From positions 248,001 through 312,000 of the forward strand of contig BROI01000010.1 in the NCBI GenBank assembly GCA_027923505.1: 64,000 nucleotides of DNA, read 5' to 3'. Both the position numbers and the translations under genes were made by a program. The notes beneath the pieces are model-generated. The model had not been told where the DNA came from. It saw nothing but the letters and a program-made list of their open reading frames with translations, and did not search any database. This document shows, one piece after another, positions 8,439 through 64,000 of the stretch. The DNA is from Mayamaea pseudoterrestris (lineage: Eukaryota). Position 1 is the stretch's first letter. Each line of letters begins with the position of its first letter.

Positions 8439-8978
8439 ATGGCCTCGCCTATTCAAAGTATTGTCCAAGAAGGTGTTGTCCAAGATCCACAGCTGCAATT
8501 GAAAGTGACAGGTGCAAATCTTCCTCCTGCATCATCACAAAGCCAAGATGGGCTAGACGATGGATCTCGACAAGGAGTGGTAGGAAACACCACCACACAC
8601 ATGTCATCAGACGTCAATGCAGGTGACAGAGCTTCATACGGCGAGCAGACACATGGGCCAAGTCCACTAATCGATGGGAGCTCTCGTACGAGCGTGCAGA
8701 CTCAAGAGACCAAGAAATGGAAAATTATGTCCCACGCAGATTTTATGGTGCAGGATCCTATTACGACACGCCTGTATCAGCGTGATGATAAAGCTCAACA
8801 GAATAGCAATGCTCAAGTCGAGAATCAGACTCAAGAGACCAAGAAATGGAAAATTATCTCTCACGCAGATGTTATGGTGCAGGATCCTATTACGACACGC
8901 CTGTATCTGCGTGATGATATAGCTCAACAGATTAGCAATGCTCAAGTCGAGAATCAGACTCAAGAGACCAAGAAATGA
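8439..8978 (+). CDS. Orphan ORF with 43-aa tandem repeats, possibly truncated or pseudogenic
   Basis: ATG-initiated 179-aa ORF. It ends at a TGA in repeat 3 where repeats 1 and 2 have TGG. Confidence 0.35.
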   Translation: MASPIQSIVQEGVVQDPQLQLKVTGANLPPASSQSQDGLDDGSRQGVVGNTTTHMSSDVNAGDRASYGEQTHGPSPLIDGSSRTSVQTQETKKWKIMSHADFMVQDPITTRLYQRDDKAQQNSNAQVENQTQETKKWKIISHADVMVQDPITTRLYLRDDIAQQISNAQVENQTQETKK

Positions 8979-9061
8979 AAAATTATGTCCCACAAAGATT
9001 TTATGGCGCAGGATCCTACTACGACACGCCTGTATCAGCGTGATGATAAAGCTCAACAGAA
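8697..9061. repeat. 129-bp tandem repeat, ~2.8 copies
   Basis: cagactcaagagaccaagaaatg(g/a)aaaattat starts at ~8697, ~8826 and ~8955. Confidence 0.95.
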
Positions 9062-16969: not shown

Positions 16970-17461
16970 TTACGAGCGCTCTCCACGGATGCGACGGGCC
17001 AACTGAACGTCCTCTGTAAAAAGGGGAAAAAATTGCATGAGATATTGAAATGGTGCAAGACTCAAGGCTTCACGCAACAACAAAAATACTGAACTGGGCA
17101 TGATTGTGACTCTTTTTGCGTGAATGGCGCAGAGGTTGGTGTCTTCAAAGAGGGAAACCAAGTACGCCTCCGCCGCCTCCTGCAGGGCCAAGACGGCAGA
17201 CCCCTGGAAGCGCAAGTCGCTCTTAAAGTCCTGCGCAATCTCACGAACGAGACGCTGAAAGGGAAGCTTGCGAATGAGCAAGTCGGTGGACTTTTGGTAG
17301 CGACGAATCTCGCGGAGGGCGACGGTTCCTGGACGGTAACGGTGGGGCTTCTTGACACCTCCAGTGGCAGGGGCAGACTTGCGAGCAGCCTTGGTGGCGA
17401 GCTGCTTGCGGGGAGCCTTTCCTCCGGTGGACTTGCGAGCGGTTTGCTTGGTACGGGCCAT
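16970..17461 (-). CDS. H3: Histone H3; 81-nt intron 17014-17094
   Basis: [21 protein letters not shown]...; removing A|GTTCAG...TTTACAG|AG restores [17 protein letters not shown]. Confidence 0.97.
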
Positions 17462-18268
<807 letters not shown>

Positions 18269-19062: not shown

Positions 19063-19395
19063 CCGATTCGTCCAACTGCTTTCGAGTCGTTCACGTCCAT
19101 ACGCTTTCCAGTCGTTTCTGCCGTCCATACGCTTTCGAATCGTTTCGTCCAATTGCTGACAAGTCGATTCGTCCATAAGCCTTCGAGTCGGTTCGGCCAT
19201 GCGCTTTCGAGTTGTTCGTCTATACGCTTGAAATTCGTTTCATATATTCGCTTTCGAGTTGATTGTCCATACGCTTTCCAGTCGGATTGTCCATATGCTT
19301 TCGAGTCGCTCGGCAAGTTTGTATTCGAGTCGTTTCGTCCATACCGGTGCGCTTTCGGGTTAATTCACCATATGCTGTCGAGTCGTTTCGTCCGA
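19063..19395. repeat. Degenerate ~24-bp minisatellite (consensus about tcgtccatacgctttcgagtcgtt), ~13 copies
   Basis: Recurrent gtccata and gctttcgagt words at ~24-27 nt spacing. Confidence 0.8.
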
Positions 19396-42920: not shown

Positions 42921-44789
42921 ATGCAAGACAAGGATATCATGCTAAATCGATCCATGCGTCACGCGAGTCGAGCAACGCAATTTCATTGTTCTGATGCCGC
43001 GTCCATGCCAAGTCAAACGTCATTGTCAAAGAGCGGAACAAGAGGAAGGCGACGGCGGAGGGGCCTCGTGTATAGCAGCTCAAGCTTGCGTATAGTCGCT
43101 GCCAATGCCTTGCTGCTCCTGCTGCTATCAACGAACAATGTCGTTGTCGCTTTTGCTTGGACCTCATTTTCGTCGCAACCGACGTTCCATGCCAAGTCAA
43201 GCATTTCATCAGCATTTACTCATCGTTTTGGAACGCAGCTACGAGTCGGAACAATGTTTGATGAGAATGAAGCAGACGCAGCCGCAAGACGACGAGGTTA
43301 CGCGCCGTTGGACTACGCGAGTCAGCAGGCGCCAGGCAGCAATGTTTTTGCATTTCCTTCCGACGCTTCGTCGTCGTCATTATTTCCAGTCATTTCCGCG
43401 TCACTGCTGCTGGCGAGCAACACGATTGGCGCCAGCTGCTTGGCGCTGCCGCAAGTGTGCGTTGGGGCTGGCGTTGGGCCCAGCATGATGCTCTTTCTGG
43501 GCGCTTACTTGTTGAATTGGGTGTCGGGCTTGTGCATTGCTTATGTTGCCATTCAGGCGCAGCAGGAATGCAACGACGAAACAATACAAGAAGGAGATTC
43601 ATCATTGACCGTTTCATCCTTTCGCGACTTGGCCCAGCACGAGCTTGGCGCCACTGGAGCAACCGTCGTGTCGTTGCTTTCCGTCTTGGTCAACGTGTGC
43701 GCCTTTACGTACGACGTTTCGCGCATGGGTCCTTTGGCGAAACACACCATCGAGTCAATCATGTTGCCAATGGAGAGTGTCATGTCGAGTACTTTTTCAC
43801 TAGAGTCACTGCAACCAGGACTCATGCTGACATGGACGGGTCTATTGGCGGTGTTGGTGGCGACGCAAACCAACCAGAAACTGTCCGTGCTGGCGTCCGT
43901 CAACGTTGCAGTCCTCTTGATTGCTTTTGCGTCCGTCTTGGTGGTGCCAGCAACGGGAGTCACGTTGGATACAGGAGGAGGACTTGATGCTGGTGGAGCC
44001 ATGCATGCTCATGCCGCCTTCGAATCCATGACGCAGCTTTCCGCCGCCGCGGAAACAACTGCACAATTACTCGACACTACCAATTCCATGTGGCAGGCGG
44101 CGCCAATCATTCTCATGGCCATGGTGTATCAAAACATTGTCCCCAGCATTGTCAAACTGCTCCACTACGATTGGCACAAGACGGTGGCGGCCATTTCCAT
44201 TGGATCCGCCCTTCCCCTGGTGCTGTACACGAGTTGGTGCGCTAAATGCTTGATGGCAAATGGCAGTGAAAGTGCCATGTTGAGCGGCGGCGGTGGCATG
44301 GCGGGATTGGTCTTGATCATCTTTTCCGTCGTGACAGTCACGGGCAGCTCGCTGGGAAGCATCATGAGTCTGTCCGAGGAGATTTCGCCCCATCTCAACA
44401 AGTCCACTGCTGCCGACGACGACGAGACGCGTGGAAATGGCAATGTCAGCCCGCCGGAACCAACGGCGAATGACAGATATTCAGCGTCATCCGTCATGTT
44501 GGCCGTTTGCGTTCCGCTTGGTGCCAACTTGATCATGGGTCAAGGCGCCGACTTTACGCCGGCACTGGCGCTGGCTGGATCCGTCGGTTCCCCCTTGCTG
44601 TATGGGGTGATTCCTGCCATGATGCTACACGCGCAGCATGAGCGGCATAAGCAATTGACTCGGACGCTCGACTGGAACGGCAGCGAAAGCAAGTCGCGCG
44701 ACAATGACCAATGGCCATCTATTGCAAAAGGCTTGCCACTGTTGGGCATTCTATCAATGGCTGCAGTGTTTGGTCTCGAGCATTTTTGA
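42921..44789 (+). CDS. Tryptophan/tyrosine (HAAAP, TyrP-like) permease, probably plastid-targeted
   Basis: NTIGASCLALP, YQNIVPSIV, GSALPLVLY, LYGVIPAMM, many TM helices and an N-terminal targeting extension. Start uncertain. Confidence 0.8.
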   Translation: MQDKDIMLNRSMRHASRATQFHCSDAASMPSQTSLSKSGTRGRRRRRGLVYSSSSLRIVAANALLLLLLSTNNVVVAFAWTSFSSQPTFHAKSSISSAFTHRFGTQLRVGTMFDENEADAAARRRGYAPLDYASQQAPGSNVFAFPSDASSSSLFPVISASLLLASNTIGASCLALPQVCVGAGVGPSMMLFLGAYLLNWVSGLCIAYVAIQAQQECNDETIQEGDSSLTVSSFRDLAQHELGATGATVVSLLSVLVNVCAFTYDVSRMGPLAKHTIESIMLPMESVMSSTFSLESLQPGLMLTWTGLLAVLVATQTNQKLSVLASVNVAVLLIAFASVLVVPATGVTLDTGGGLDAGGAMHAHAAFESMTQLSAAAETTAQLLDTTNSMWQAAPIILMAMVYQNIVPSIVKLLHYDWHKTVAAISIGSALPLVLYTSWCAKCLMANGSESAMLSGGGGMAGLVLIIFSVVTVTGSSLGSIMSLSEEISPHLNKSTAADDDETRGNGNVSPPEPTANDRYSASSVMLAVCVPLGANLIMGQGADFTPALALAGSVGSPLLYGVIPAMMLHAQHERHKQLTRTLDWNGSESKSRDNDQWPSIAKGLPLLGILSMAAVFGLEHF

Positions 44790-45118
44790 ATCTTTTCTCG
44801 ATATTGACAAGATGCGGTGACGTGAAGCAACATAGTAGTCTTTGCGTGTTGTACATACTATAACAGACAAATTTTGTACATGTGTTAAAGCGTTGCGTCC
44901 ACAAACACTAATATAACTTGTTTACTGTCGCCGACAACGTATGTCGGTGCCCGCAATAATTCCCCTCGCGTTGCAAGAAGACTACATCTCATCTTCATAT
45001 AACTAAATATACGAAAGATGGTAGTGTAACAAGGGTCAAAGATTGGATTATTTACCGTAATATACACAAAAAAGACCCACGGCTCAATCTCAAAGCTTTG
45101 TAGCATGAGAGAACCAAC

Positions 45119-46045
45119 TTAGAGCTGGGAGGTGACCGCGTCAACATGGTCGGCGACAACACCAAGGTTGACAAAGATTTCCTTCTCGTTGACTAATTCT
45201 TGGGCAACGATACCAGCCGCACCAAGCATGGCCAAGCGTCCGTTCTGGAGCTCCTTGGTCTGCATCTCGGCAAACTCCGCTGGGTCAGTGGGCTTGAGTC
45301 CAAAGGGGTCGAAGCCAACGTCACCTGGGTAGTAGTCAGGGTTGAGGAACTTGCCCGAGTCGAGGGCGTTGCTGGGGGCTCTCCATCCGCGAAGGGCGCG
45401 GTTCAACTCGAGTGTACCAATGGTAAAGGCAAGAATCTCAAAGAAGAATGGCGCCGCTTGACGGACAACGTCAAGGTGGCGAATGGAGGGGCCAATGTCG
45501 CGCGCGGCGCTTCCAAAGAGCGGATGGAACTTGAGCGGCTGCTCCGTGACAAGCATACCAACAGTGGCAAGCATGGCGACACGTCCGTGCTGGAGCTCAG
45601 CCTCACGGTACTCCTTCATCTTTTCAAGGCTAGCCGTTTGGGCAAAGCCAAGGGGGTCAAATCCTTCCGGAATGGGGTCAATGGCGCCTGGAAGACCATA
45701 GGCAAAGACGTTGTTGTCCGGGGACCATCCGTTCATGGACTTGGCAGAGTCGAGCTGCATGTTGGACTGGCCCTGTTTGTGTTGAGTTGTGATGATCAAG
45801 AGTGTGAGAGTTGGTCGGTGGTCCATAAGAAAAGCTAGGTCGTTGCTTGTCAGCAAATGTTTATACTCATGGACAGGTCAAAAGATCCTTGAAAGATTTG
45901 ATGGATCTTTTGGTCTGCTCGTTCATCACTCTTTCGATCGGCAGAGTCACGCAGTCTCTTTCGCTGCAACAGATTCACTTACATTCTTGGACGGAGCAAA
46001 GGCAGCGGCAGAGGCAATGAGGGAGGCGGCGAGAGCAAGCTTCAT
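45119..46045 (-). CDS. LHCX: Light-harvesting stress-related protein Lhcx (LI818 family); exons 45983-46045 and 45119-45772
   Basis: MKLALAASLIASAAAFAP signal; GTAAGT...AAACAG intron in phase 0; EAELQHGRVAML, FHPLF, YYPGDVGFDPFGLKP and TKELQNGRLAML. Confidence 0.92.
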
Positions 46046-46545
46046 GGTTTTAAAATGCAATGTAGAAAGTGTAAGTTTGTAGATTGTGAGAGCGATGGAA
46101 GATTTTGCCGACCGTGAGGGACACGCTTACGAGAGACGAAAAAGATATCGGATCGTTTCCTCTTCGATTTCCGAACGCTATCGAATTGGTGAATCTTCTG
46201 TGACGCAAGGGCGATATCACTGCGAACGGGACTGACGTGGTGTGATGTCATGATCTGAGTCGAGGGTCTGCGTCTGTTTAGTTACGCTGCGACTATAGGT
46301 AGTTTTTCTCGTCGCGCAAAATGCGAGCTGGACATTCTGCCATAGGCTCATAACAGGTGTATACTATAGTCTACCATTGCTGTGCCACCGACAGGGTCAC
46401 TCAGAGCAACGGCACCAAACCACAAAGGAGCAAGGATGTCCAATACACCATGGATAGCTCATTTGAAATGCACAAAGCCTTGTCAAGTTCAAGCAGCTTT
46501 CAATGCCAGCCATGATCCATGTGTTCCACTGCAAGCGACTAAACT

Positions 46546-47760
46546 TAGCTTGATGGAAGGTGGCAATACTGCAAATGATGGGGATGACCAAAGTTTGCTT
46601 GCGCTGCCGCTGCTGCTGCATAACACACAGTCGCACGTAATACAGTGTATCTACTCCTGTATCGTCAGGAAAAAAATGAATTGACCAACATTGTATGTGT
46701 CATAGTACCTCACAAATACCTTGTCTAAAGGTGGCAATGGCTAAAAAGACAATCAGGGCCATAGTTTGATGGGTTGGATTCATGGACAGCACTTTTGTTC
46801 TATCTGGCCCATCTACTCCCACAACTTTTCCAAAACTTGAGCTTGCCAGGCTTGTTTGGGTCTGTTGGCCTCATTGATATCTTGGCCCATGGTGGTAATG
46901 TTTGTAAGTGATGGGGATGCCCAGCGGACCTGGTGGTGTGGTGTGGTGACATGATACTTAGCAATTTGGAAGCTAGCATGTCTATTTTCAAAACTTGAAG
47001 GATTTGCATGACCACCAAGGTTGTAGAGGTTGATTGACTTGACCAATAGCTTGGTGGAAGGTGGCAATGCTGCAAATGATGGGGATGACCAAAGTTTGCT
47101 TGCGCTGCCGCTGCTGCTGCATAACACACAGTCGCACGTAATACATTGTATTTACTCCTGTATCGCAGGAAAACATGAGTTGACCAACATTGTATGTGTC
47201 CTAGTACCTCAAAAATATCTTGTCTAAAGGTGGCAATGGCTAAAAAGACAATCAGGGCCATAGTTTGTTGGGTTTGGATTCATAGACAGCACTTTTGTTC
47301 TATTTGGCCCATCTACTCCCACAACTGTCCCAAAACTTGAGCTTGTCATGTTGGTTTGGGTCTGTTGGCCTCATTGATATCTTGGCCCACGGTGGCAATG
47401 TTTGTAAGTGATGGGGATGCCCAGCGGGCCTGGTGTTGTGCTGTGGCAACATGATACTTAGCTATGTGGATGCTAGCATGTCTATTCCCAAAAATTGAAG
47501 GATTTGCATGACCAACAAGGTTGTAGAGGTTGATTGACCTGACCAATAGCTTGATGGAAGGTGGCAATGCTGCAAATGATGGGGATGACCAATGTTTGCT
47601 TGTGCTGCCGCTGCTGCTGCGTGACATACAGTTGCATGGAATACAGTGTATCTACTCCTGTATTGCCAGGAAAACATGAGTCGACCAACATTGTATGTGT
47701 CCTAGTACCTCACAAATACCATGTCTAAAGGTGGCAAAGACTAAAAAGACAATCAGGGCC
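46546..47760. repeat. ~500-bp tandem repeat (~2.4 copies) built from three diverged ~167-bp sub-monomers
   Basis: tagcttg(a/g)tggaaggtggcaat at 46546, 47047 and 47547. Internal ggtgg(c/t)aat anchors at ~46559, ~46730, ~46891 and ~47060. Confidence 0.9.
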
Positions 47761-50700
47761 AATCCCTTGTCCCTTATGTTCATTTGGCATGGTGAAACCC
47801 CGCCATGGCATCCAAGTTGCTCAGTGACGGCGAGAAAGAAAATTATTTTTCAGCGCATCTTCAAGGGTCATCTGCCTAGAAGGCGCCACTGGTGCACCAA
47901 TGGAGCATCCTATGAGCACCTGCATGGCCAAATCCTTGTCCCGTATGTTCATTTGGTGTGGTAAAACCCCGCCATGGCATCCAAGTAGCTCAGTGACGTT
48001 GAGAAGGAAAATCCTTCTGAGCGCCAGTTGAAGGGGCATCTGCCTAGAAGGTGCCACTGGTGCACCATCGGAGCATCCAATGAGCACCTGCATGGCCAAA
48101 CCCTTGTCCCATCTGTTTGTTTGGTGTGGTGAAACCCCGCCATGGCATCCAAGTAGTTCACTGACGGCGAGAAGGAAAATCCTTCTGAGCGCCAGTTGAA
48201 GGGCCATCTGCCTAGAAGGCGCCACTGGTGCACCAATGGAGCATCCAATGAGCACCTGCATGACAAAACCCTTGTCCCATATGTTCATTTGGTGTGGTGA
48301 GACCCCGCCATGGCATCCAAGTAGCTCACTGATGGCGAGAAGGAATATCCTTCTGAGCGACAGTTGAAGGGCCATCTGACTAGAAGGCGCCACTGGTGCA
48401 CCAATGGAGCATCCAATGAGCACCTGCATGGCCAAACCATTGTCCCGTATGCTCATTTGGTGTGGTGAAACCCCGCCATGGCATCCAAGTAGCTCAGTGA
48501 GGGCGAGAAGGAAAATCCTTCTGAGCGCCAGTTGAAGGGGCATCTGCCTAGAAGGCACCACTGGTGCACCAATGGAGCATCAAATGAGCGCCTGCATGGC
48601 CAAAACCTTGTCCAATATGTTTATTTGGTGTGGTGAAACCCCGCCATGGCATCCAAGTAGCTCGCCTAGAAGGCGCCACTGGGGCACTAATGAAGCATCC
48701 AATGAGCACCTGCATGGCCAAACCCTTGTCCCATATGTTCATTTGGCGTGGTGAAACCCCGCCATGGCATCCAAGTAGCTCAGTGATGTTGAGAAGGAAA
48801 ATCCTTCTGAGCGCCAGTTGAAGGGCCATCTGCCTAGAAGGCACCACTGGTGCACCATTGGAGCATCCAATGAGCACCTGCATGGCCAAACCCTTGTAAC
48901 GTATGTTCATTTGGTGTGGTGAAATCACACCATGGCATCCAAGTAGCTCAGTGACGGCGAGAAGGAAAATCCTTATGAGTGCCAGTTGAAGGGCCATCTG
49001 CCTAGAAGGCGCCACTGGGGCACCAATGGAGCATCCAATGAGCACCTGCATGGCCAAACCCTTGTCCCATATGTTCATTTGGTGTGGTGAAACCCCGCCA
49101 TGGCATCCAAGTAGCTCAGTGATGGCGAGAAGGAAAATCCTTCTGAGCGCCAGTTGAAGGGCCATCTGCCCAGAAGGCGCCACTGGTGCACCAATGGAGC
49201 ATTCTATGAGCATTTGCATGGCCAAACCCTTGTCCAATATGTTCATTTGGGGTGGTGAAACCCCGCCATGGCATCCAAGTAGCTCAGTGACGGCGAGAAG
49301 GAAAAACCTTCTGAGCGCCAGTTGAAGGGCCATCTGCCTAGAAGGCGCCACTGGTGCACCAATGGAGCATCCAATGAGCATCTGCATGGCCAAACCCTTG
49401 TCCTGTATGTTAATTTGGCGTGGTAAAATCCCGCCATGGCATCCAAGTAGCTCAGTGACGGCGAGAAGGAAAAACCTTCTGAGCGCTAGTTGAAGGGCCA
49501 TCTGCCTAGAAGGCGCCACTAGTGCACCATTGGAGCATCCAATGAGCACCTGCTTGGCCAAACCCTTGTTCAATTTGTTTATGTGGTGTGGTGAAACCCC
49601 GCCATGGCATTTAAGTAGCTTAGTGACGGCGAGAAGGAAAAACCTTCTGAGCGCCAGTTGAAGGGCCATCTGCCTAGAAGGCGCCACTGGAGCACCAATG
49701 GAGCATCCAATGAGCACCTGCATGGCCAAACCCTTGTCCCGACCCTTGTACCGTATGTTCATTTGGTGTGGTGAAACCCCGCCATGGCATCCAAGTAGCT
49801 CAGTGACGGCGAGAAGGAAAAACCTTCTGAGCGCCAGTTGAAGGGCCATCTGCCCAGAAGGCGCCACTGGTGCACCAATGGAGCATCCAATGAGCACCTG
49901 CATGGCCAAACCCTTGTCCCATATGTTCATTTGGTGTGATGAAACCCCGCCATGGCATCCAAGTAGCTCACTGACGGCGAGAAGGAAAAAACCTTCTGAG
50001 CACCAGTTGAAAGGCCATCTGCCTAGAAGGCGCCACTGGTGCACCATTGGAGCATCCAATGAGCACCTGCATGGCCAAACCCTTGTCCCATATGTTCATT
50101 TGGTGTGGTGAAACCCCGCCATGGCATCCAAGTAGCTCAGTGACGGCGAGAAGGAAAAACCTTCTGAGCGCCAGTTGAAGGGCCATCTGCCTAGAAGGCG
50201 GGGCACCAATGGAGCATCCAATGAGCACCTGCATGGCCAAACCCTTGTCCTGTATGTTCATTTGGCGTGGTAAAATCCCGCCATGGCATCCAAGTAGCTC
50301 AGTGACGGCGAGAAGGAAAAACCTTCTGAGCGCCAGTTGAAGGGCCATCTGCCTAGAAGGCGCCACTAGTGCACCATTGGAGCATCCAATGAGCACCTGC
50401 TTGGCCAAACCCTTGTCCAATTTGTTTATGTGGTGTGGTGAAACCCCGCCATGGCATCCAAGTAGCTCAGTGATGGCGAGAAGGAAAAACCTTCTGAGCG
50501 CCACTTGAAGGGCCATCTGCCTAGAAGGCGCCACTGGAGCACCAATGGAGCATCCAATGAGCACCTGCATGGCCAAACCCTTGTCCCGTATGTTCATTTG
50601 GCGTGGTGAAACCCCGCCATGGCATCCAAGTAGCTCAGTGATGGCGAGAAGGAAAAACCTTCTGAGCGCCAGTTGAAGGGCCATCTGCCTAGAGGCGCCA

Positions 50701-53700
50701 CCAGTGCACCATTGGAGCATCCAACGAGCACCTGCTTGGCCAAACCCTTGTCCAATTTGTTTATGTGGTGTGGTGAAACCCCGCCATGGCATCCAAGTAG
50801 CTCAGTGAAGGCGAGAAGGAAAATCCTTCTGAGCGCCAGTTGAAGGGCCATCTGCCTAGAAGGCGCCACTGGTGCACCAATGGAGCATCCAATGAGCACC
50901 TGCATGGCCAAACCCTTGTCCCATATGTTCATTTGGTGTGGTGAAACCCCGCCATGGCATCCAAATAGCTCAGTGACGGCGAGAAGGAAAAACCTTCTGA
51001 GCGCCAGTTGAAGGGCCATCTGCCTAGAAGGCGCCACTGGTGCACCAATGGAGCATCCAATGAGCACCTGCATGGTCAAACCCTTGTCCCGTATATTCAT
51101 TTGGCGTGATGAAACCTCGCCACGGCATTCAAGTAGCTCAGTGACGGCGAGAAGGAAAATCCTTCTGAGTGCCAGTTGAAGGGCCACTTGCCTAGAAGGC
51201 GCCACAGGTGCACCATTGGAGCATCCAATGAGCACCTGCATGGCCAAACCCTTGTACCGTATGTTCATTTAGTGTGGTGAAACCCCGCCATGGCATCCAA
51301 GTAGCTCAGTGACGGCGAGAAGGAAAATCCTTCTGTTCACCAGTTGAAGGGGCATCTGCCTAGAAGGTGCCACTGGGGCACCAATGGAGCATCCAATGAG
51401 CACCTGCATGACCAAACCCTTGTCCTGTATGTTCATTTGGCGTGGTAAAATCCCGCCATGGCATCCAAGTAGCTCAGTGACGGCGAGAAGGAAAAACCAT
51501 CTGAGCGCCAGTTGAAGGGCCATCTGCCTAGAAGGCGCCACTAGTGCACCAATGGAGCATCCAATGAGCACCTGCATGGCCACCTTTCCGCGAAGCGGCC
51601 AAACCCTTGTCCTGTATGTTAATTTAGTGTGGTGAAACCCCGCCATGGCATCCAAGTAGCTCAGTGACGGCAAGAAGGAAAAACCTTCTGAGCGCCAGTT
51701 GAAGGGCCATCTGCCTAGAAGGCGCCACTGGTGCACCAATGGAGCATCCAATGAGCACCTGCATGGCCAAACCCTTGTCCCGTATGTTCATTTGGTGTGG
51801 TGAAACCCCGCCATGGCATCCAAGTAGCTCAGTGACGGTGAGAAGGAAAACCTTCTGAGCGCCAGTTGAAGGGCCATCTGCCTAGAAGGCGCCACTGGTG
51901 CACCAATGGAGCATCCAATGAGCACCTGCATGGCCAAACCCTTGTCCCGTATGTTCATTTGGCGTGGTGAAACCCCGCCATGGCATCCAAGTAGCTCAGT
52001 GATGGCGAGAAGGAAATTCCTTCTGAGCGCCAGTTGAAGGGCCATCTGCATAGAAGGCGCCACTGGTGCACCAATGGAGCATCCAATGAGCACCTGCATG
52101 GCCAAACCCTTGATCAATATGTTCATTTGGCGTGGTGAAACCCCGCCATGGCATCCAAGTAGCTCAGTGACGGCGAGAAGGAAAAACCTTCTGAGCGCCA
52201 GTTGAAGGGCCATCTGCCTAGAAGGCGCCACTGGTGCACCATTGGAGCATCCTATGAGCACCTGCATGGGCAAACCCTTGTCCTGTATGTTCATTTGGTG
52301 TGGTGAAACCCCGCCATGGCATCCAAGTAGCTCACTGACGGCGAGAAGGAAAATCCTTCTGAGCGCCAGTTGAAGGGCCATCTGCCTAGAAGGCGCCACT
52401 GGTGCACCATTGGAGCATCCAATGAGCACCTGCATGGCCAAACCCTTGTCCCATATGTTCATTTGGCGTGGTGAAACCCCGCCATGGCATCCAAGTAGCT
52501 CAGTGATGGCAAGAAGGAAAATCCTTCTGAGCGCCAGTTGAAGGGCCATCTGCCTAGAAGGCGCCACTGGTGCACCAATGGAGCAATCTATGAGCACCTG
52601 CATGGGCAAAACCTTGTCCAATATGTAAATTTAGTGTGGTGAAACCCTGCCATGGCATCCAAATAGCTCAGTGACGGTGAGAAGGAAAATCCTTCTGAGC
52701 GCCAGTTGAAGGGGCATCTGCCTAGAAGGCACCACTGGTGCACTGATGGAGCATTCTATGAGCACCTGCATGGGCAAACCCTTGTCCTGTATGTTCATTT
52801 GGTGTGGTGAAACCCCGCCATGGCATCCAAGTAGCTCAGTGACGGCGAGAAGGAAAATCCTTCTGAGCGCCAGTTGAAGGGGCATCTGCCTAGAAGGCGC
52901 CACTGGTGCACTGATGGAGCATCCTATGAGCACCTGCATGGGCAAACCCTTGTCCTGTATGTTCATTTGGCGTGGTGAAACCCCGCCATGGCATCCAAGT
53001 AGCTCAGTGACGGCGAGAAGGAAAATCCTTCTGAGCGCCAGTTGAAGGGCCATCTGCCTAGAAGGCGCCACTGGTGCACCATCGGAGCATCCCATGAGCA
53101 CCTGCATGGCCAAACCCTTGTTCAATATGTTCATTTGGCGTGGTGAAACCCCGTTATGGCATCCAAGTAGCTCAGTGATGGTGAGAAGGAAAAACCTTCT
53201 GAGCGCCAGTTGAAGGGCCATCTGCCTAGAAGGCGCCACTGGTGCACCATTGGAGCATCCTATGAGCACCTGCATGGCCAAACCCTTGTCCCATATGTTC
53301 ATTTAGTGTGGTGAAACCCCGCCATGGCATCCAAGTAGCTCAGTGACGGCGAGAAGGAAAAACCTTCTGAGCGCCAGTTGAAGGGCCATCTGCCTAGAAG
53401 GCGCCACTGGTGCACCAATGGAGCATCCAATGAGCACCTGCATGGCCAAACCCTTGTACCCTATGTTCATTTGGTGTGGTGAAACCCCGCCATGGCATCC
53501 AAGTAGCTCAGTGACGGCGAGAAGGAAAATCCTTCTGAGCCAAGTAGCTCAGTGATGGTGAGAAGGAAAAACCTTCTGAGCGCCAGTTGAAGGGCCATCT
53601 GCCTAGAAGGCGCCACTGGTGCACCATTGGAGCATCCTATGAGCACCTGCATGGCCAAACCCTTGTCCCATATGTTCATTTAGTGTGGTGAAACCCCGCC

Positions 53701-56700
53701 ATGGCATCCAAGTAGCTCAGTGACGGCGAGAAGGAAAAACCTTCTGAGCGCCAGTTGAAGGGCCATCTGCCTAGAAGGCGCCACTGGTGCACCAATGGAG
53801 CATCCAATGAGCACCTGCATGGCCAAACCCTTGTACCCTATGTTCATTTGGTGTGGTGAAACCCCGCCATGGCATCCAAGTAGCTCAGTGACGGCGAGAA
53901 GGAAAATCCTTCTGAGCGCCAGTTGAAGGGCCATCTGCCTAGAAGGCGCCACTGGTGCACCAATGGAGCATCCAATGAGCACCTGCATGGCCAAACCCTT
54001 GTCCCATATGTTCATTTGGTGTGGTGAAACCCCGCCATGGCATCCAAGTAGCTCAGTGACGGCGAGAAGGAAAAACCTTCTGAGCGCCAGTTGAAGGGCC
54101 ATCTGCCTAGAAGGCGCCACTGGTGCACCAATGGAGCATCCAATGAGCACCTGCATGGCCAAACCCTTGTCCCATATGTTCATTTAGTGTGGTGAAACCC
54201 CGCCATGGCATCCAAGTAGCTCAGTGACGGTGAGAAGGAAAAACCTTCTGAGCGCCAGTTGAAGGGCCATCTGCCTAGAAGGCGCCACTGGTGCACCAAT
54301 GGAGCATCCAATGAGCACCTGCATGGCCAAACCCTTGTCCTGTATGTTCATTTGGTGTGGTGAAACCCCGCCATGGCATCCAAGTAGCTCAGTGACGGCG
54401 AGAAGGAAAATTCTTCTGAGCGCCAGTTGAAGGGCCATCTGCCTAGAAGGCGCCACTGGTGCACCAATGGAGCATCCAATGAGCACCTGCATGGCCAAAC
54501 CCTTGTTCAATATGTTCATTTGGCGTGGTGAAACCCCGCCATGGCATCCAAGTAGCTCAGTGACGGCGAGAAGGAAAATCCTTCTGAGCGCCAGTTGAAG
54601 GGCCATCTGCCTAGAAGGCGCCACTGGTGCACCAATGGAGCATCCAATGAGCACCTGCATGGCCAAACCCTTGTTCAATATGTTCATTTGGCGTGGTGAA
54701 ACCCCGCCATGGCATCCAAGTAGCTCAGTGACGGCGAGAAGGAAATTCCTTCTGAGCGCCAGTTGAAGGGCCATCTGCCTAGAAGGCGCCACTGGTGCAC
54801 CAATGGAGCATCCAATGAGCACCTGCATGGCCAAACCCTTGTCCCGTATGTTCATTTGGCGTGGTGAAACCCCGCCATGGCATCCAAGTAGCTCAGTGAC
54901 GGTGAGAAGGAAAATCCTTCTGAGCGCCAGTTGAAGGGGCATCTGCCTAGAAGGCGCCACTGGTGCACCATTGGAGCATCCAATGAGCACCTGCATGGCC
55001 AAACCCTTGTCCCATATGTTCATTTGGTGTGGTGAAACCCCGCCATGGCATCCAAGTAGCTCACTGACGGCGAGAAGGAAAAACCTTCTGAGCGCCAGTT
55101 GAAGGGCCATCTGCCTAGAAGGCGCCACTGGTGCACCAATGGAGCATCCAATGAGCACCTGCATGGCCAAACCCTTGTCCCATATGTTCATTTGGTGTGG
55201 TGAAACCCCGCCATGGCATCCAAGTAGCTCAGTGACGGCGAGAAGGAAAAACCTTCTGAGCGCCAGTTGAAGGGCCATCTGCCTAGAAGGCGCCACTGGT
55301 GCACCAATGGAGCATCCAATGAGCACCTGCATGGCCAAACCCTTGTCCCATATGTTCATTTGGTGTGGTGAAACCCCGCCATGGCATCCAAGTAGCTCAG
55401 TGACGGCGAGAAGGAAAATCCTTCTGAGCGCCAGTTGAAGGGCCATCTGCCTAGAAGGCGCCACTGGTGCACCAATGGAGCATCCAATGAGCACCTGCAT
55501 GGCCAAACCCTTGTCCCATATGTTCATTTGGCGTGGTGAAACCCCGCCATGGCATCCAAGTAGCTCAGTGACGGCGAGAAGGAAAAACCTTCTGAGCGCC
55601 AGTTGAAGGGCCATCTGCCTAGAAGGCGCCACTGGTGCACCATTGGAGCATCCAATGAGCACCTGCATGGCCAAACCCTTGTCCCATATGTTCATTTGGC
55701 GTGGTGAAACCCCGCCATGGCATCCAAGTAGCTCAGTGACGGCGAGAAGGAAATTCCTTCTGAGCGCCAGTTGAAGGGCCATCTGCCTAGAAGGCGCCAC
55801 TGGTGCACCATTGGAGCATCCAATGAGCACCTGCATGGCCAAACCCTTGTCCCATATGTTCATTTAGTGTGGTGAAACCCCGCCATGGCATCCAAGTAGC
55901 TCAGTGACGGCGAGAAGGAAAAACCTTCTGAGCGCCAGTTGAAGGGCCATCTGCCTAGAAGGCGCCACTGGTGCACCAATGGAGCATCCAATGAGCACCT
56001 GCATGGCCAAACCCTTGTCCCGTATGTTCATTTGGCGTGGTGAAACCCCGCCATGGCATCCAAGTAGCTCAGTGACAGCGAGAAGGAAAAACCTTCTGAG
56101 CGCCAGTTGAAGGGCCATCTGCCTAAAAGGCGCCACTGGTGCACCATTGGGGCATCCAACGAGCACCTGCATGGCCAAACCCTTGTCCCATATGTTCATT
56201 TGGTGTGGTGAAACCCCGCCATGGCATCCAAGTAGCTCACTGACGGCGAGAAGGAAAAACCTTCTGAGCGCCAGTTGAAGGGCCATCTGCCTAGAAGGCG
56301 CCACTGGTGCACCAATGGAGCATCCAATGAGCACCTGCATGGCCAAACCCTTGTCCTGTATGTTCATTTGGTGTGGTGAAACCCCGCCATGGCATCCAAG
56401 TAGCTCACTGACGGCGAGAAGGAAAATCCTTCTGAGCGCCAGTTGAAGGGCCATCTGCCTAGAAGGCGCCACTGGTGCACCATTGGAGCATCCAATGAGC
56501 ACCTGCATGGCCAAACCCTTGTTCAATATGTTCATTTGGCGTGGTGAAACCCCGCCATGGCATCCAAGTAGCTCAGTGACGGCGAGAAGGAAATTCCTTC
56601 TGAGCGCCAGTTGAAGGGCCATCTGCCTAGAAGGCGCCACTGGTGCACCATTGGAGCATCCAATGAGCACCTGCATGGCCAAACCCTTGTCCCATATGTT

Positions 56701-59700
56701 CATTTGGCGTGGTGAAACCCCGCCATGGCATCCAAGTAGCTCAGTGACGGCGAGAAGGAAAAACCTTCTGAGCGCCAGTTGAAGGGCCATCTGCCTAGAA
56801 GGCGCCACTGGTGCACCATTGGAGCATCCAATGAGCACCTGCATGGCCAAACCCTTGTCCCGTATGTTCATTTGGCGTGGTGAAACCCCGCCATGGCATC
56901 CAAGTAGCTCAGTGACGGCGAGAAGGAAAAACCTTCTGAGCGCCAGTTGAAGGGCCATCTGCCTAGAAGGCGCCAATGGTGCACCAATGGAGCATCCAAT
57001 GAGCACCTGCATGGCCAAACCCTTGTTCAATATGTTCATTTGGCGTGGTGAAACCCCGCCATGGCATCCAAGTAGCTCAGTGACGGCGAGAAGGAAAATC
57101 TTCTGAGCGCCAGTTGAAGGGCCATCTGCCTAGAAGGCGCCACTGGTGCACCATTGGAGCATCCAATGAGCACCTGCATGGCCAAACCCTTGTCCCATAT
57201 GTTCATTTGGTGTGGTGAAACCCCGCCATGGCATCCAAGTAGCTCAGTGACGGCGAGAAGGAAAATCCTTCTGAGCGCCAGTTGAAGGGCCATCTGCCTA
57301 GAAGGCGCCACTGGTGCACCATTGGAGCATCCAATGAGCACCTGCATGGCCAAACCCTTGTCCCATATGTTCATTTAGTGTGGTGAAACCCCGCCATGGC
57401 ATCCAAGTAGCTCAGTGACGGTGAGAAGGAAAAACCTTCTGAGCGCCAGTTGAAGGGCCATCTGCCTAGAAGGCGCCACTGGTGCACCATTGGAGCATCC
57501 AATGAGCACCTGCATGGCCAAACCCTTGTCCCATATGTTAATTTAGTGTGGTGAAACCCCGCCATGGCATCCAAGTAGCTCAGTGATGGTGAGAAGGAAA
57601 CATTTTCTGAGCGCCAGTTGAAGGGCCATCTGCATAGAAGGCGCCACTGGTGCACCATTGGAGCATCCTATGAGCACCTGCATGGGCAAACCCTTGTCCT
57701 GTATGTTCATTTGGCGTGGTGAAACCCCGCCATGGCATCCAAGTAGCTCAGTGACGGCGAGAAGGAAAATCCTTCTGAGCGCCAGTTGAAGGGCCATCTG
57801 CCTAGAAGGCGCCACTGGTGCACCAATGGAGCATCCAATGAGCACCTGCATGGCCAAACCCTTGTCCCGTATGTTCATTTGGTGTGGTGAAACCCCGCCA
57901 TGGCATCCAAGTAGCTCAGTGACGGCGAGAAGGAAAAACCTTCTGAGCGCCAGTTGAAGGGCCATCTGCCTAGAAGGCGCCACTGGTGCACCAATGGAGC
58001 ATCCAATGAGCACCTGCATGGCCAAACCCTTGTCCCATATGTTCATTTGGCGTGGTGAAACCCCGCCATGGCATCCAAGTAGCTCAGTGACGGCGAGAAG
58101 GAAAAACCTTCTGAGCGCCAGTTGAAGGGCCATCTGCCTAGAAGGCGCCACTGGTGCACCAATGGAGCATCCAATGAGCACCTGCATGGCCAAACCCTTG
58201 TCCCGTATGTTCATTTGGCGTGGTGAAACCCCGCCATGGCATCCAAGTAGCTCAGTGACAGCGAGAAGGAAAAACCTTCTGAGCGCCAGTTGAAGGGCCA
58301 TCTGCCTAGAAGGCGCCACTGGTGCACCAATGGAGCATCCAATGAGCACCTGCATGGCCAAACCCTTGTCCAATATGTTCATTTGGCGTGGTGAAACCCC
58401 GCCATGGCATCCAAGTAGCTCAGTGACGGCGAGAAGGAAAAACCTTCTGAGCGCCAGTTGAAGGGCCATCTGCCTAGAAGGCGCCACTGGTGCACCAATG
58501 GAGCATCCAATGAGCACCTGCATGGCCAAACCCTTGTCCCATATGTTCATTTGGTGTGGTGAAACCCCGCCATGGCATCCAAGTAGCTCAGTGACGGCGA
58601 GAAGGAAAAACCTTCTGAGCGCCAGTTGAAGGGCCATCTGCCTAGAAGGCGCCACTGGTGCACCAATGGAGCATCCAATGAGCACCTGCATGGCCAAACC
58701 CTTGTCCCGTATGTTCATTTGGCGTGGTGAAACCCCGCCATGGCATCCAAGTAGCTCAGTGACGGCGAGAAGGAAAAACCTTCTGAGCGCCAGTTGAAGG
58801 GCCATCTGCCTAGAAGGCGCCACTGGTGCACCAATGGAGCATCCAATGAGCACCTGCATGGCCAAACCCTTGTCCCGTATGTTCATTTGGCGTGGTGAAA
58901 CCCCGCCATGGCATCCAAGTAGCTCAGTGACGGTGAGAAGGAAAATCCTTCTGAGCGCCAGTTGAAGGGCCATCTGCCTAGAAGGCGCCACTGGTGCACC
59001 AATGGAGCATCCAATGAGCACCTGCATGGCCAAACCCTTGTCCCGTATGTTCATTTGGTGTGGTGAAACCCCGCCATGGCATCCAAGTAGCTCAGTGACG
59101 GTGAGAAGGAAAACCTTCTGAGCGCCAGTTGAAGGGCCATCTGCCTAGAAGGCGCCACTGGTGCACCAATGGAGCATCCAATGAGCACCTGCATGGCCAA
59201 ACCCTTGTCCCATATGTTCATTTGGTGTGGTGAAACCCCGCCATGGCATCCAAGTAGCTCAGTGACGGCGAGAAGGAAAATCCTTCTGAGCGCCAGTTGA
59301 AGGGCCATCTGCCTAGAAGGCGCCACTGGTGCACCATTGGAGCATCCAATGAGCACCTGCATGGCCAAACCCTTGTCCCATATGTTCATTTGGAGTGGTG
59401 AAACCCCGTTATGGCATCCAAGTAGCTCAGTGACGGTGAGAAGGAAAAACCTTCTGAGCGCCAGTTGAAGGGCCATCTGCCTAGAAGGCGCCACTGGTGC
59501 ACCAATGGAGCATCCAATGAGCATCTGCATGGCCAAACCCTTGTCCCGTATGTTCATTTGGCGTGGTGAAACCCCTCCATGGCATCCAAGTAGCTCAGTG
59601 ACGGCGAGAAGGAAAAACCTTCTGAGCGCCAGTTGAAGGGCCATCTGCCTAGAAGGCGCCACTGGTGCACCAATGGAGCATCCAATGAGCATCTGCATGG

Positions 59701-62320
59701 CCAAACCCTTGTCCCATATGTTCATTTGGCGTGGTGAAACCCCGCCATGGCATCCAAGTAGCTCAGTGACGGCGAGAAGGAAAAACCTTCTGAGCGCCAG
59801 TTGAAGGGCCATCTGCCTAGAAGGCGCCACTGGTGCACCAATGGAGCATCCAATGAGCACCTGCATGGCCAAACCCTTGTCCCGTATGTTCATTTGGCGT
59901 GGTGAAACCCCGCCATGGCATCCAAGTAGCTCAGTGACGGCGAGAAGGAAAATCCTTCTGAGCGCCAGTTGAAGGGCCATCTGCCTAGAAGGCGCCACTG
60001 GTGCACCAATGGAGCATCCAATGAGCATCTGCATGGCCAAACCCTTGTCCCATATGTTCATTTGGCGTGGTGAAACCCCGCCATGGCATCCAAGTAGCTC
60101 AGTGACGGCGAGAAGGAAAATCCTTCTGAGCGCCAGTTGAAGGGGCATCTGCCTAGAAGGCGCCACTGGTGCACCAATGGAGCATCCAATGAGCACCTGC
60201 ATGGCCAAACCCTTGTCCCGTATGTTCATTTGGTGTGGTGAAACCCCTCCATGGCATCCAAGTAGCTCAGTGACGGCGAGAAGGAAAAACCTTCTGAGCG
60301 CCAGTTGAAGGGGCATCTGCCTAGAAGGCGCCACTGGTGCACCAATGGAGCATCCAATGAGCACCTGCATGGCCAAACCCTTGTCCCGTATGTTCATTTG
60401 GTGTGGTGAAACCCCTCCATGGCATCCAAGTAGCTCAGTGACAGCGAGAAGGAAAATCCTTCTGAGCGCCAGTTGAAGGGGCATCTGCCTAGAAGGCGCC
60501 ACTGGTGCACCAATGGAGCATCCAATGAGCATCTGCATGGCCAAACCCTTGTCCCGTATGTTCATTTGGCGTGGTGAAACCCCTCCATGGCATCCACGTA
60601 GCTCAGTGACGGCGAGAAGGAAATACCTTCTGAGCACCAGTTGTAGGGGCATCTGCCTAGAAGGTGCCACTGGTGCACCAATGGAGCATCCAATGAGCAT
60701 CTGCATGGCCAAACCCTTGTCCCGTATGTTCATTTGGCGTGGTGAAACCCCTCCATGGCATCCAAGTAGCTCAGTGACGGCGAGAAGGAAAATCCTTCTG
60801 AGCGCCAGTTGAAGGGGCTCTTGCCAGAAGGCCGCACTGGTGCACCAATGGAGCATCCAATGAGCATCTGCATGGCCAAACCCTTGTCCCGTATGTTCAT
60901 TTGGCGTGGTGAAACCCCTCCATGGCATCCAAGTAGCTCAGTGACGGCGAGAAGGAAATACCTTCTGAGCGCCAGTTGTAGGGGCATCTGCCTAGAAGGT
61001 GCCACTGGTGCACCAATGGAGCATCCAATGAGCATCTGCATGGCCAAACCCTTGTCCCGTATGTTCATTTGGCGTGGTGAAACCCCTCCATGGCATCCAA
61101 GTAGCTCAGTGACGGCGAGAAGGAAAAACCTTCTGAGCGCCAGTTGAAGGGGCGTCTGCCTAGAAGGCGCCACTGGTGCACCAATGGAGCATCCAATGAG
61201 CATCTGCATGGCCAAACCCTTGTCCCGTATGTTCATTTGGTGTGGTGAAACCCCTCCATGGCATCCACGTAGCTCAGTGATGGCGAGAAGGAAAAACCTT
61301 CTGAGCGCCAGTTGAAGGGGCATCTGCCTAGAAGGCGCCACTGGTGCACCAATGGAGCATCCAATGAGCACCTGCATGGCCAAACCCTTGTCCTGTATGT
61401 TCATTTGGCGTGGTGAAACCCCTCCATGGCATCCAAGTAGCTCAGTGATGGCGAGAAGGAAAATCCTTCTGAGCGCCAGTTGAAGGGGCATCTGCCTAGA
61501 AGGCGCCACTGGTGCACCAATGGAGCATCCAATGAGCACTTGCTTGTCCAAACCCTTGTTGCGTATGTTCATTTGGCGTGGTGAAACCCCTCCATGGCAT
61601 CCAAGTAGCTCAGTGATGGCGAGAAGGAAAATCCTTCTGAGCGCCACTTGTAGGGGCATCTGCCTAGAAGGCGCCACTGGTGCACCAATGGAGCATCCAA
61701 TGAGCATCTGCATGGCCAAACCCTTGTCCCGTATGTTCATTTGGTGTGGTGAAACCCCTCCATGGCATCCAAGTAGCTCAGTGATGGCGAGAAGGAAATA
61801 CCTTCTGAGCGCCAGTTGAAGGGGCATCTGCCTAGAAGGCGCCACTGGTGCACCAATGGAGCATCCAATGAGCACCTGCATGTCCAAACCCTTGTCCCGT
61901 ATGTTCATTTGGTGTGGTGAAACCCCTCCATGGCATCCAAGTAGCTCAGTGATGGCGAGAAGGAAAATCCTTCTGAGCGCCACTTGTAGGGGTGTCTGCC
62001 TAGAAGGCGCCACTGGTGCACCAATGGAGCATCCAATGAGCATCTGCATGGCCAAACCCTTGTCCCGTATGTTCATTTGGCGTGGTTAAACCCCTCCATG
62101 GCATCCAAGTAGCTCAGTGGTGGTGAGAAGGAAAATCCTTCTGAGCGCCAGTTGAAGGGGCATCTGCCTAGAAGGCGCCACTGGTGCACCAATGGAGCAT
62201 CCAATGAGCATCTGCATGGCCAAACCCTTGTCCCGTATGTTCATTTGGCGTGGTGAAACCCCTCCATGGCATCCAAGTAGCTCAGTGATGGTGAGAAGGA
62301 ATATCCTTCTGAGCGGCACT
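47757..62320. repeat. Satellite array of 168-bp monomers, ~86 copies, ~55% GC
   Basis: Consensus ggccaaacccttgtcccatatgttcatttggtgtggtgaaaccccgccatggcatccaagtagctcagtgacggcgagaaggaaaaaccttctgagcgccagttgaagggccatctgcctagaaggcgccactggtgcaccaatggagcatccaatgagcacctgcat (168 nt, 92 G+C by hand count). Confidence 0.99.
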
Positions 62321-62324
62321 TCTG

Positions 62325-63503
62325 TGTAGCTGGTGACTGTGTGGCTCTTTGCCCTCCCCGATTACTGATGCTACATTTGAGCTGGGAATGATTGTTATGC
62401 ACCAATATCACCGCATATGTGTCCCCAGGGATAGCCAGAACAGAAATCATGGAACAAGACTATTCGGGGTAGTCATTAAAGGCCGCACACTGTAGAACCT
62501 TGCAGCTGGTTACTGTTTGGATCTTTGCCCTCCCAATCAACTGATGCTACATGTGAGCTGGGATTGATTGTTATGCACCAATCTCACCTCATAAATGTCC
62601 ATAAACATATCCAGAACAGACTTCATGGAACAAGACTTTTGGGAAAAGCTTTTGAAGGCCACACATGTAGCACCATGGAGCCGGTTACTGTGCGGATTTT
62701 TGCCTTCCCAAACAACTGATGCTACACGTGAGCTGGGAATGATTGTTATGCACCAATCTCACCGCATACATGTCCCTAAGAATAGCCAAAACAGAATTCA
62801 TGGAACAGGACTATAGGGGGTAGTCTCTGAAGGCCACACATGTAGCACCATGCAGCTGGTTACTGTGTGTATCTTTGCCCTCCCAAACAACTGATGCTAC
62901 ATGTAAGCTGGGAATGATTGGTATGCACCAATCTCACCGCATACATGTCCTCGAAGATAGCCAGAACGGACTTCATGGAACAAGACTTTTGGGAAAAGCC
63001 TTTGAAGGCCACACATGAAGCACCATGGAGCGGGTTACTGTGCGGATCTTTGCCCTCCCAAACAACTGGTGCTACATGTGAGCTGGAAATGATTTTTATG
63101 CACCAAGCTCACCGCATATGTGTCCCCAAAGATAGCCAGAGTAGAATTCATGGAACAAGACTATTGCAGGTAGTCATTGAAGGCCTTACACCGTAGCACC
63201 ATGGAGCAGGTTACTGTGCGGATCTTTGCCCTCCCAAACAACTGATGCTACACGTGAGCTGGGAATGATTGTTATGCACCAATCTCACCGCATATGTGTC
63301 CCCAAGGATAGCCAGAACAGAATTCATGGAACAGGACTATTGGAGGTAGCCTTTGAAGGCCACACATGTAGCACCATGGAGCTGGTTACTGTGTGGATCT
63401 TTGCCCTTGCCCTCCCAAACAACTGATGCTACATGTGAGCTGGAAATGATTGTTATGCACCAATATCACTGGATACGTGTCCCCAAGGATAGCCAGAACA
63501 GAG
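62325..63503. repeat. 175-bp satellite, ~6.7 diverged copies
   Basis: ctg(a/g)tgctac anchor at 62365, 62541, 62716, 62891, 63066, 63242 and 63423. Confidence 0.95.
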
Positions 63504-63604
63504 TTGGTTGCAGTAGGATATATCCCGACATGTCTCACGACATTACTTGGAATACTGCAGCTGCGACCTAGATGATGTCATGGTTGTGGTGCATGCAATG
63601 ACCC

Positions 63605-63985
63605 CTAATAATAAACGTGTTAGCTATCCCAAACACATTGCTTTAATTTAGGAGTATGCTCTCAGAGAGCCATCAATTACGACTAAATTACTGCAATCTC
63701 TAGCCTCTCCTTGTGTGAGACCGTTGATCCTACCACCTCCCCGCTCCGCGAATGTGTTTATGCATTCTGCATTCTGTCATCTACCTACGGCTGGCTAATA
63801 ATAAACGTATTAGCTATCCCAAACACATTGCTTTAATTTAGGAGTATGCTCTCAGAGAGCCATCAATTACCACTAAATTACTGCAATCTCTAGCCTCTCC
63901 TTGTGTGAAACCGTTGATCCTACCACCTCCCCGCTCCGCGAATGTGTTTATGCATTCTGCATTCTGTCATCTACCTACGGCTGGC
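63605..63985. repeat. 190-bp direct repeat, two near-identical copies
   Basis: ctaataataaacgt...ctacctacggctggc at 63605 and 63795; about three substitutions between copies. Confidence 0.95.
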
Positions 63986-64000
63986 CAGTAATCTTCGATG

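What the first reader, a model, noticed from the sequence alone, without database searches (positions are those of the whole stretch)
46546..63985. Composite nucleosome-scale satellite domain: candidate satellite centromere or heterochromatin block in a diatom
Seen: genes stop abruptly ~500 bp upstream of the Lhcx start. They are followed by >17 kb of four consecutive tandem families with unit lengths of ~3x167, 168, 175 and 190 bp. A large homogeneous 168-bp core is flanked on both sides by short, more diverged families. Known: satellite centromeres of plants and animals often have mono-nucleosome monomers and a homogeneous core flanked by older satellites, whereas the centromeres mapped in Phaeodactylum are short AT-rich non-satellite regions. 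Inference: this ~55% GC array may be a satellite-type centromere not typical of described diatoms, or a subtelomeric/heterochromatic block.
Basis: partly seen in the sequence, partly recalled or inferred. Interest (0 to 1): 0.8.

Follow-up and report, generated by a model that had tools for sequence, protein, structure and literature searches.

The report
Diatom satellite island ending in Helentron
This 17.6-kb patchwork of tandem repeats between two diatom genes is real, but it is one of many such silenced-looking islands on each chromosome piece and ends in a small rolling-circle jumping element, so it is unlikely to be the chromosome's single centromere, although the genome-wide layout resembles centromeres spread along whole chromosomes.

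Summary
The arrays are real: 500 bp x2.4, 168 bp x87, 175 bp x6.7. The '190-bp family' is a local duplication of the end of a non-autonomous Helentron (HINE). That HINE has the same ends as an autonomous Rep-PIF1 element on C25, and the terminus occurs 86 times genome-wide. Genes resume 29 bp later, mid-contig. The 168-mer lies on at least 15 of 41 contigs, often at several sites. All of contig C23 is 18% satellite, in 11 islands, with no AT-rich peak. The dominant 169-bp family (about 5% of the assembly) is absent here. CpG loss points to long methylation. The 175-HINE joint recurs with different 3' flanks, so satellite probably travelled with the element, but only 3 of 18 168-bearing blocks have HINE ends. 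Verdict: dispersed heterochromatic satellite island (0.68); single centromere 0.10. A repeat-based holocentromere is not excluded (0.15). The scan noted similar islands elsewhere in this genome; I saw no note linking them to a HINE.

The parts
45119..46046 (-). Light-harvesting (chlorophyll a/b-binding family) gene; its promoter faces the island
   Evidence: PF00504 E 2e-39 on ORF 45122-45826; start codon at 46044-46046
46371..46544 (-). 175-bp copy of the 3' end of an ABC1-kinase-like gene on C5, CpG-decayed; left edge of the island
   Evidence: 83% identity; CpG 12 in the C5 copy, 3 here; 10 of 29 substitutions are CpG transitions; ABC1 match weak, E 0.008, below cut-off
46546..47761 (+). 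500-bp satellite, 2.4 copies (506-513 bp elsewhere), probably an old trimer of about 167 bp; dispersed family
47757..62315 (+). 168-bp satellite, 87 monomers, homogeneous core; the last ~12 monomers carry a variant tied to the 175 junction on C10, C23 and C34
62328..63509 (+). 175-bp satellite, 6.7 copies; widely dispersed family (136 candidates, 40 scored)
63510..63756 (+). Non-autonomous Helentron (HINE / HLE2), 247 bp, internally deleted against 370-bp solo copies; altered 5' inverted repeat, intact 3' end, TT on both sides
63605..63984 (+).
63975..64000 (-). Stop codon and last codons of a macro-domain gene; right flank
   Evidence: ORF L001 1975-3411; PF01661 E 1e-12

Best explanation
The block is one of many dispersed, long-methylated satellite islands in a compact diatom genome that keeps a library of unrelated repeats of 168-181 bp or multiples of that length. 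It is silent filler chromatin, not the chromosome's single centromere. Steps: (1) a HINE landed at a TT inside a 175-bp monomer (shown by sequence). (2) The 175+HINE composite, in one lineage with 168-mers in front, was copied to new TT sites by the RepHel of the autonomous partner: the 3' end is kept exactly and the upstream satellite cargo varies (inferred from shared joints and unrelated 3' flanks). (3) Arrays grew locally and were joined to other families (here the 500-mer) by unequal exchange or re-inserted circles (inferred). (4) CG methylation silenced the island and eroded its CpGs (inferred from mutation pattern). Unit length set by nucleosome spacing is an inference only.
For: HINE: 5' ends follow TT in 34 of 41 and 3' ends precede TT in 41 of 42. 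An inverted repeat pairs the two ends. 86 termini genome-wide, control 0. The C25 element has the same ends around a 2373-aa ORF with DUF6570, Helitron_like_N, PIF1 and C48 domains. Composite: the same-phase 175-HINE joint is at 11 of 41 5' ends by the script's test, plus the window's own. A two-change variant of the 5' end occurs in 8 copies on 7 contigs, all next to 175 arrays, and in none of the other 29. Nine composites have 8 different 3' flanks. The 168-175 joint is in the same phase on C10 and C23 and nearly so on C34, and the same 168 variant adjoins it in all three. Dispersal. C23 has 11 islands of 1.6-31 kb, CpG o/e 0.36 against 1.12. Three DNA-methylase-family loci are present. Diatom methylation is described as isolated CG-methylated repeat islands (PMC9998398, passages).
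Against: No HINE end at the left edge, so the block is not one bracketed element. Only 3 of 18 168-bearing blocks have a HINE end within 3 kb, and some flanks read were shorter than that. 11 of 14 HINE loci sampled carry no satellite. So the HINE explains part of the spread, not all. The composite loci were picked by a query holding both parts. The known end-bypass model captures 3' flank (PMC5148889), whereas the cargo here is 5'. The 3' hairpin is weak. Methylation was not measured. No AT-rich centromere was found on C23, so CENH3 must sit somewhere, possibly on islands.
Confidence: 0.68

Rival explanations
1. The islands are the units of a repeat-based holocentromere or polycentromere, as Tyba arrays are in Rhynchospora, and this block is one unit.
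For: Islands of 1.6-31 kb lie along all of C23, 7-136 kb apart. Monomers are 168-181 bp. A rolling-circle carrier is involved. No low-GC peak on C23: lowest 2-kb G+C 44.5%, at most 4 low windows per 3 kb. No per-contig clusters of long A/T runs. A CENH3-like H3 is present on C2 (73% to H3, one extra residue). Tyba: 172 bp, ~20-kb arrays, Helitron-associated, CENH3-bound (10.64898/2026.01.17.700053, passages).
Against: Tyba is one family; here there are many, and this block lacks the dominant 169-mer. Density on C23 is about 21 islands per Mb against 0.9-2.1 in plant holocentrics. Phaeodactylum is monocentric by ChIP. Oyster has dispersed HINE-borne arrays without this role being claimed in the passages read. 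C23 was chosen for holding a sister array and has no telomeres.
Confidence: 0.12
2. This block is the single regional centromere of C10, chosen epigenetically from among several islands.
For: It is large, with a homogenised core and older edges. It is the largest island seen in the ~10% of C10 read. No AT-rich alternative in that part or on C23.
Against: C10 has further islands at 129 kb, 408-411 kb and its right end. C23 has 11 islands, four of them 11-31 kb and comparable to this one. Large 168 arrays were seen on only 4 contigs. Genes abut both sides with no pericentromeric zone.
Confidence: 0.1
3. The islands spread only by recombination and re-insertion of repeat circles; the HINE is a bystander that inserted into satellites independently.
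For: 15 of 18 168-bearing blocks lack HINE ends. Family order varies: 175-500-169, 500-175, 169-500, 168-169-352. HINEs also land in other arrays (L052).
Against: A shared derived 5' variant and a shared joint combined with different 3' flanks need the composite to have moved with an exact HINE end.
Confidence: 0.08
4. The block is an assembly artefact.
For: Contigs of this assembly start or end inside satellites; array length may be wrong.
Against: Short-read contigs cross the left junction at the depth of the flanking gene in two studies (78 against 70, possibly the source sample; 19.3 against 18.8). Monomers are all distinct and show an ordered variant gradient shared with C34. The right junction and the array length were not checked with reads.
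Confidence: 0.02

Closest known systems
HLE2 elements: Helentron/Helitron2 and their non-autonomous HINE/DINE-1 partners (PMC4067079, PMC11417382, PMC5148889; passages read)
   Same: Short inverted repeats near both ends, TT target, shared ends with an autonomous Rep-helicase element carrying DUF6570, tandem self-insertions, conserved 3' end.
   Different: 3' hairpin weak; partner has a C48 protease domain and no endonuclease hit in Pfam; no diatom mention in the passages searched in PMC4067079 and PMC11417382.
Cg_HINE elements of the Pacific oyster carrying dispersed satellite-like arrays (PMC7492417; passages read)
   Same: Short arrays of about 170-bp repeats scattered among genes and tied to non-autonomous Helentrons.
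   Different: In oyster the repeats are central, between the element's ends. Here they lie outside, upstream of a damaged 5' end (between the ends only in L029), most islands have no HINE, and unrelated families are stacked.
Repeat-based holocentromeres of Rhynchospora (Tyba, TCR1 Helitron; 10.64898/2026.01.17.700053; passages read)
   Same: Nucleosome-length monomer, arrays of tens of kb among genes along the chromosome, rolling-circle carrier.
   Different: Tyba is one CENH3-proven family at about 1-2 arrays per Mb; here many families, about 21 islands per Mb on C23, no CENH3 data.
Diatom centromeres of Phaeodactylum tricornutum and Fistulifera solaris (10.1101/096016; 10.1101/2021.11.10.468027; passages read)
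   Same: Nothing in sequence; same algal group.
   Different: Those are short, low-GC, non-satellite, about one per chromosome; this is 45-54% G+C tandem DNA, and C23 shows no low-GC peak.
Plant and animal satellite centromeres (alpha satellite, CEN178; recalled, not from a call)
   Same: Monomer length; homogeneous core with older edges.
   Different: 17 kb instead of megabases; many islands per contig; family on a minority of contigs.

Membership tests
HINE / HLE2 (63510-63756) | Short inverted repeats near the 5' and 3' ends | tested here: met
   11-13 bp repeat pairs the ends in a solo copy; the window's 5' copy has two changes
HINE / HLE2 (63510-63756) | Insertion at TT, sharp ends, unrelated flanks | tested here: met
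   TT before 34 of 41 5' ends and after 41 of 42 3' ends; 8 different flanks in 9; empty sites not examined
HINE / HLE2 (63510-63756) | Autonomous Rep-helicase partner with the same ends; DUF6570 marker | tested here: met
   C25 element, 2373 aa, PF20209, PF14214, PF05970; marker per PMC11417382
HINE / HLE2 (63510-63756) | Stem-loop near the 3' end | tested here: inconclusive
   Only a 3-bp stem predicted
HINE with central tandem repeats (whole block as one element) | Array enclosed between the element's 5' and 3' ends | tested here: not met
   No HINE end in 44500-47800; arrays lie upstream of the 5' end
Monocentric satellite centromere | One major array per chromosome, shared family | tested here: not met
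   168-mer on at least 15 of 41 contigs, several sites each; 11 islands on C23; contigs are not telomere-to-telomere
Monocentric satellite centromere | Dominant satellite of the genome | tested here: not met
   169-bp family: 7023 exact hits, none in the window
Any centromere | CENH3 occupancy | not testable with these tools
   Only a candidate gene was found on C2; hallmarks recalled, not from a call
Phaeodactylum-type centromere | Short region with windows at or below 32% G+C | tested here: not met
   Block 45-54% G+C; at most 1 low window per 3 kb in C10 248-340 kb
Repeat-based holocentromere | Short arrays spread along whole chromosomes among genes | tested here: met
   C23, 1 contig of 41 read in full
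Repeat-based holocentromere | One (or two) families mark all units | tested here: not met
   C23 islands use the 168, 169, 175, 181, 346-352 families in different mixes
Subtelomeric satellite | Next to telomere repeats or the contig end | tested here: not met
   294-312 kb of 1,067 kb, genes on both sides
Methylated heterochromatin | 5mCG and repressive histone marks | not testable with these tools
   Indirect only: CpG depletion and CpG transitions

The most novel reading that the evidence does not exclude
This diatom has no AT-rich centromeres; kinetochores form on many nucleosome-length satellite islands per chromosome, a repeat-based holo- or polycentromere reached independently in stramenopiles. 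New units are seeded by a Helentron that drags upstream satellite along, and new monomers are born from captured nucleosome-sized pieces of host DNA such as the 175-bp ABC1 gene fragment at the island's edge.
Probability: 0.15. Interest if true: 0.88.

Novelty: new variant of a known kind. Interest (0 to 1): 0.5.

Why it matters
Described diatom centromeres are short AT-rich stretches. I found no paper on dispersed satellite libraries, HINE-borne satellites or holocentricity in diatoms (searches; open-access library only; papers on this particular organism were not searched). A 30-Mb algal genome with about 5% of one satellite and up to 18% satellite on one contig, all at nucleosome multiples, gives a small system for asking how unit length is set and how rolling-circle elements spread satellites. 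One CENH3 experiment would separate inert islands from a new centromere type.

Tried and rejected
Coding repeat: the 168-mer has an open frame on the minus strand (ORFs to 625 aa), but 403 synonymous against 1130 non-synonymous changes and 42 stops against 55 expected show no clear selection; Pfam hits had no significant single stretch. Common ancestry of the 168, 169, 175, 181, 352 and 500 families: none above z 4. Whole block as one element with inverted ends: no left end; one diverged inverted end beside the C23 sister array is taken as a separate insertion. My first monomer split used an anchor that matched twice per unit and was redone. The 22-mer count for the 168 family (203) misses one variant (1 hit on C23), so it is no copy number. 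A/T-run search is a weak test. Telomere repeats were not seen at the 8 contig ends read, out of 82. No RNA holder listed. Summed contig depth over the 500-mer is no copy number. No diatom nucleosome repeat length found in PMC4504042 passages. DNMT type of the three methylase loci was not determined. No supplements were read; those of bioRxiv papers are closed and could bear on novelty.

Full report
Observation. TRF finds arrays at 46546-47761 (500 bp, 2.4 copies), 47757-62315 (168 bp), 62328-63502 (175 bp, 6.7 copies) and 63605-63992 (190 bp, 2 copies). The 168 array has 87 monomers, 74 of exactly 168 bp, 98% identical to consensus centrally and 95% at the edges. The units are unrelated to each other. 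Two thirds of the 500-mer align end to end at offsets of 162-172, so an old trimer is plausible. CpG o/e is 0.26, 0.42 and 0.29 in the three arrays against 1.14 in the genes; CpG transitions run at 0.058 per site and monomer against 0.013 at other C/G sites.

Limits. The window is G000:C10:248001-312000 in a 1,067-kb contig of a 30.6-Mb, 41-contig genome. A light-harvesting gene starts 500 bp to the left. A macro-domain gene stops at 63975-63977, and CpG-normal DNA follows. The island is closed and interstitial. Short-read contigs cross its left junction at single-copy depth in two studies, one possibly the source. Its left edge, 46371-46544, is a 175-bp copy of the end of an ABC1-like gene on C5 that has 3 CpGs where the source has 12; I take C5 as the source because it is in an open frame.

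Genome context. The 168-mer was found on 15 of 41 contigs (lower bound: 54 matches were not listed), with large arrays on C10, C22, C23 and C34 and several sites on C1, C10 and C23. The 500 and 175 families are dispersed on their own. Other loci add unrelated 169, 181, 352 and 346-352 families in varying order. I read C23 in full, chosen because it has a sister array: 18% satellite in 11 islands of 1.6-31 kb, 7-136 kb apart (short arrays of a 42-bp family left out), CpG o/e 0.36 against 1.12, no low-GC peak, no telomeres. A 23-mer of the 169 family has 7023 exact hits, about 1.5 Mb or 5% of the assembly by calibration on C23, and none in the window. By my tally of the arrays seen, the 168 family has some 500-600 monomers (inference, lower bound).

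The right end. The sequence after the 175 array recurs beside 175 arrays elsewhere and stops sharply. Its terminus has 86 matches, control 0. Solo copies are about 370 bp, with inverted repeats near both ends and TT on both sides: 34 of 41 5' ends and 41 of 42 3' ends. On C25 the same ends enclose a 2373-aa ORF with DUF6570, Helitron_like_N, PIF1 and C48 domains, followed by tandem solo copies. These are the features given for HINE/HLE2 elements (PMC4067079; PMC11417382; passages only), except for a weak 3' hairpin. In the window the HINE spans 63510-63756, and the 190-bp pair duplicates its 3' part with flank.

Co-movement. The 175-HINE joint is in the same phase at 11 of 41 5' ends by the script's test, plus the window's own, which a short deletion hides from that test. 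A two-change variant of the 5' end is in 8 copies on 7 contigs, all beside 175 arrays, and in none of the other 29. Nine composites have eight different 3' flanks. The 168-175 joint matches between C10 and C23 and nearly C34. One 168 variant adjoins the 175 array in all three, and C10 and C34 share the whole gradient. This points to a composite copied with an exact HINE 3' end. Against: no HINE end on the left, only 3 of 18 168-bearing blocks have one, and 11 of 14 sampled HINE loci have no satellite. The published bypass model takes 3' flank, although multiple 5' termini and a more conserved 3' end are described (PMC5148889). Recombination or circle re-insertion must do much of the rest.

Centromere? 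Phaeodactylum centromeres are low-GC and single by ChIP; predicted Fistulifera ones lack high repeats. This block fits neither, and it fails the one-per-chromosome and dominant-family tests. Yet C23 has no AT-rich alternative, a CENH3-like H3 exists on C2 (73% to H3, one extra residue; hallmarks recalled), and the layout recalls Tyba holocentromeres, though with many families and about ten times the array density. I give 0.10 to a single centromere here and 0.12 to this block being a holocentric unit.

Novelty. Dispersed HINE-linked satellites are known from oyster and Drosophila. Searches listed no diatom case; PMC7290008 and PMC7082073 (oomycetes) were seen as listings only, and papers on this organism were not searched. 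Earlier notes of this scan describe many similar islands in the same genome and HLE2 elements separately; they are unchecked and came after my own tests. Verdict: real, a new variant of a known kind, interest 0.5.

Noticed in passing
G000:C2:130344-130610 (L137:144-425): Divergent histone H3, 73% identical to canonical H3 with one extra residue in the loop region: candidate CENH3.
   Followed up: partly
L013:1-4543 (C1, 2.718-2.723 Mb): Two 169-bp arrays in opposite orientation flank about 115 copies of an 8-bp repeat.
   Followed up: no
L013:5365-5691, L017:4637-4963, L008:2516-2842: A 327-bp CpG-rich sequence, 99.7-100% identical at three loci, inside or beside satellite arrays: probably a young separate mobile element.
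   Followed up: no
L045:5400-6060, minus strand: A second small ORF between the RepHel ORF and the 3' end of the autonomous C25 Helentron; six or seven HINE ends follow in tandem.
   Followed up: no
L049-L050 (C12, 208-220 kb): A CpG-depleted RepHel ORF (1823 aa) lies about 1.3 kb from a 346-bp satellite block and lacks the HINE ends studied here: a second element family.
   Followed up: partly
L014 and L015; L011 and L012: Satellite islands duplicated with kilobases of flank (99.9% over 4.3 kb, C4 and C38; 87-97% on C1): segmental duplication or uncollapsed haplotypes.
   Followed up: no
C23 at 54.7, 120, 209.6, 343 and 387 kb; C12 near 104-120 kb: Short arrays of a 42-bp repeat between genes, not CpG-depleted.
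   Followed up: no
G000:C23:307151-307492: A two-copy 168-bp tandem duplication (94%) in otherwise unique DNA, beside the lowest-GC 2-kb window of the contig; perhaps a nascent satellite.
   Followed up: no
window 16970-17617, minus strand: Canonical histone H3 gene with an intron; a near-identical copy is on C12.
   Followed up: partly
window 5284-5578, 8697-9061, 19064-19344, 30346-30582: Small tandem repeats of period 150, 129, 24 and 126 in the gene-rich part.
   Followed up: no
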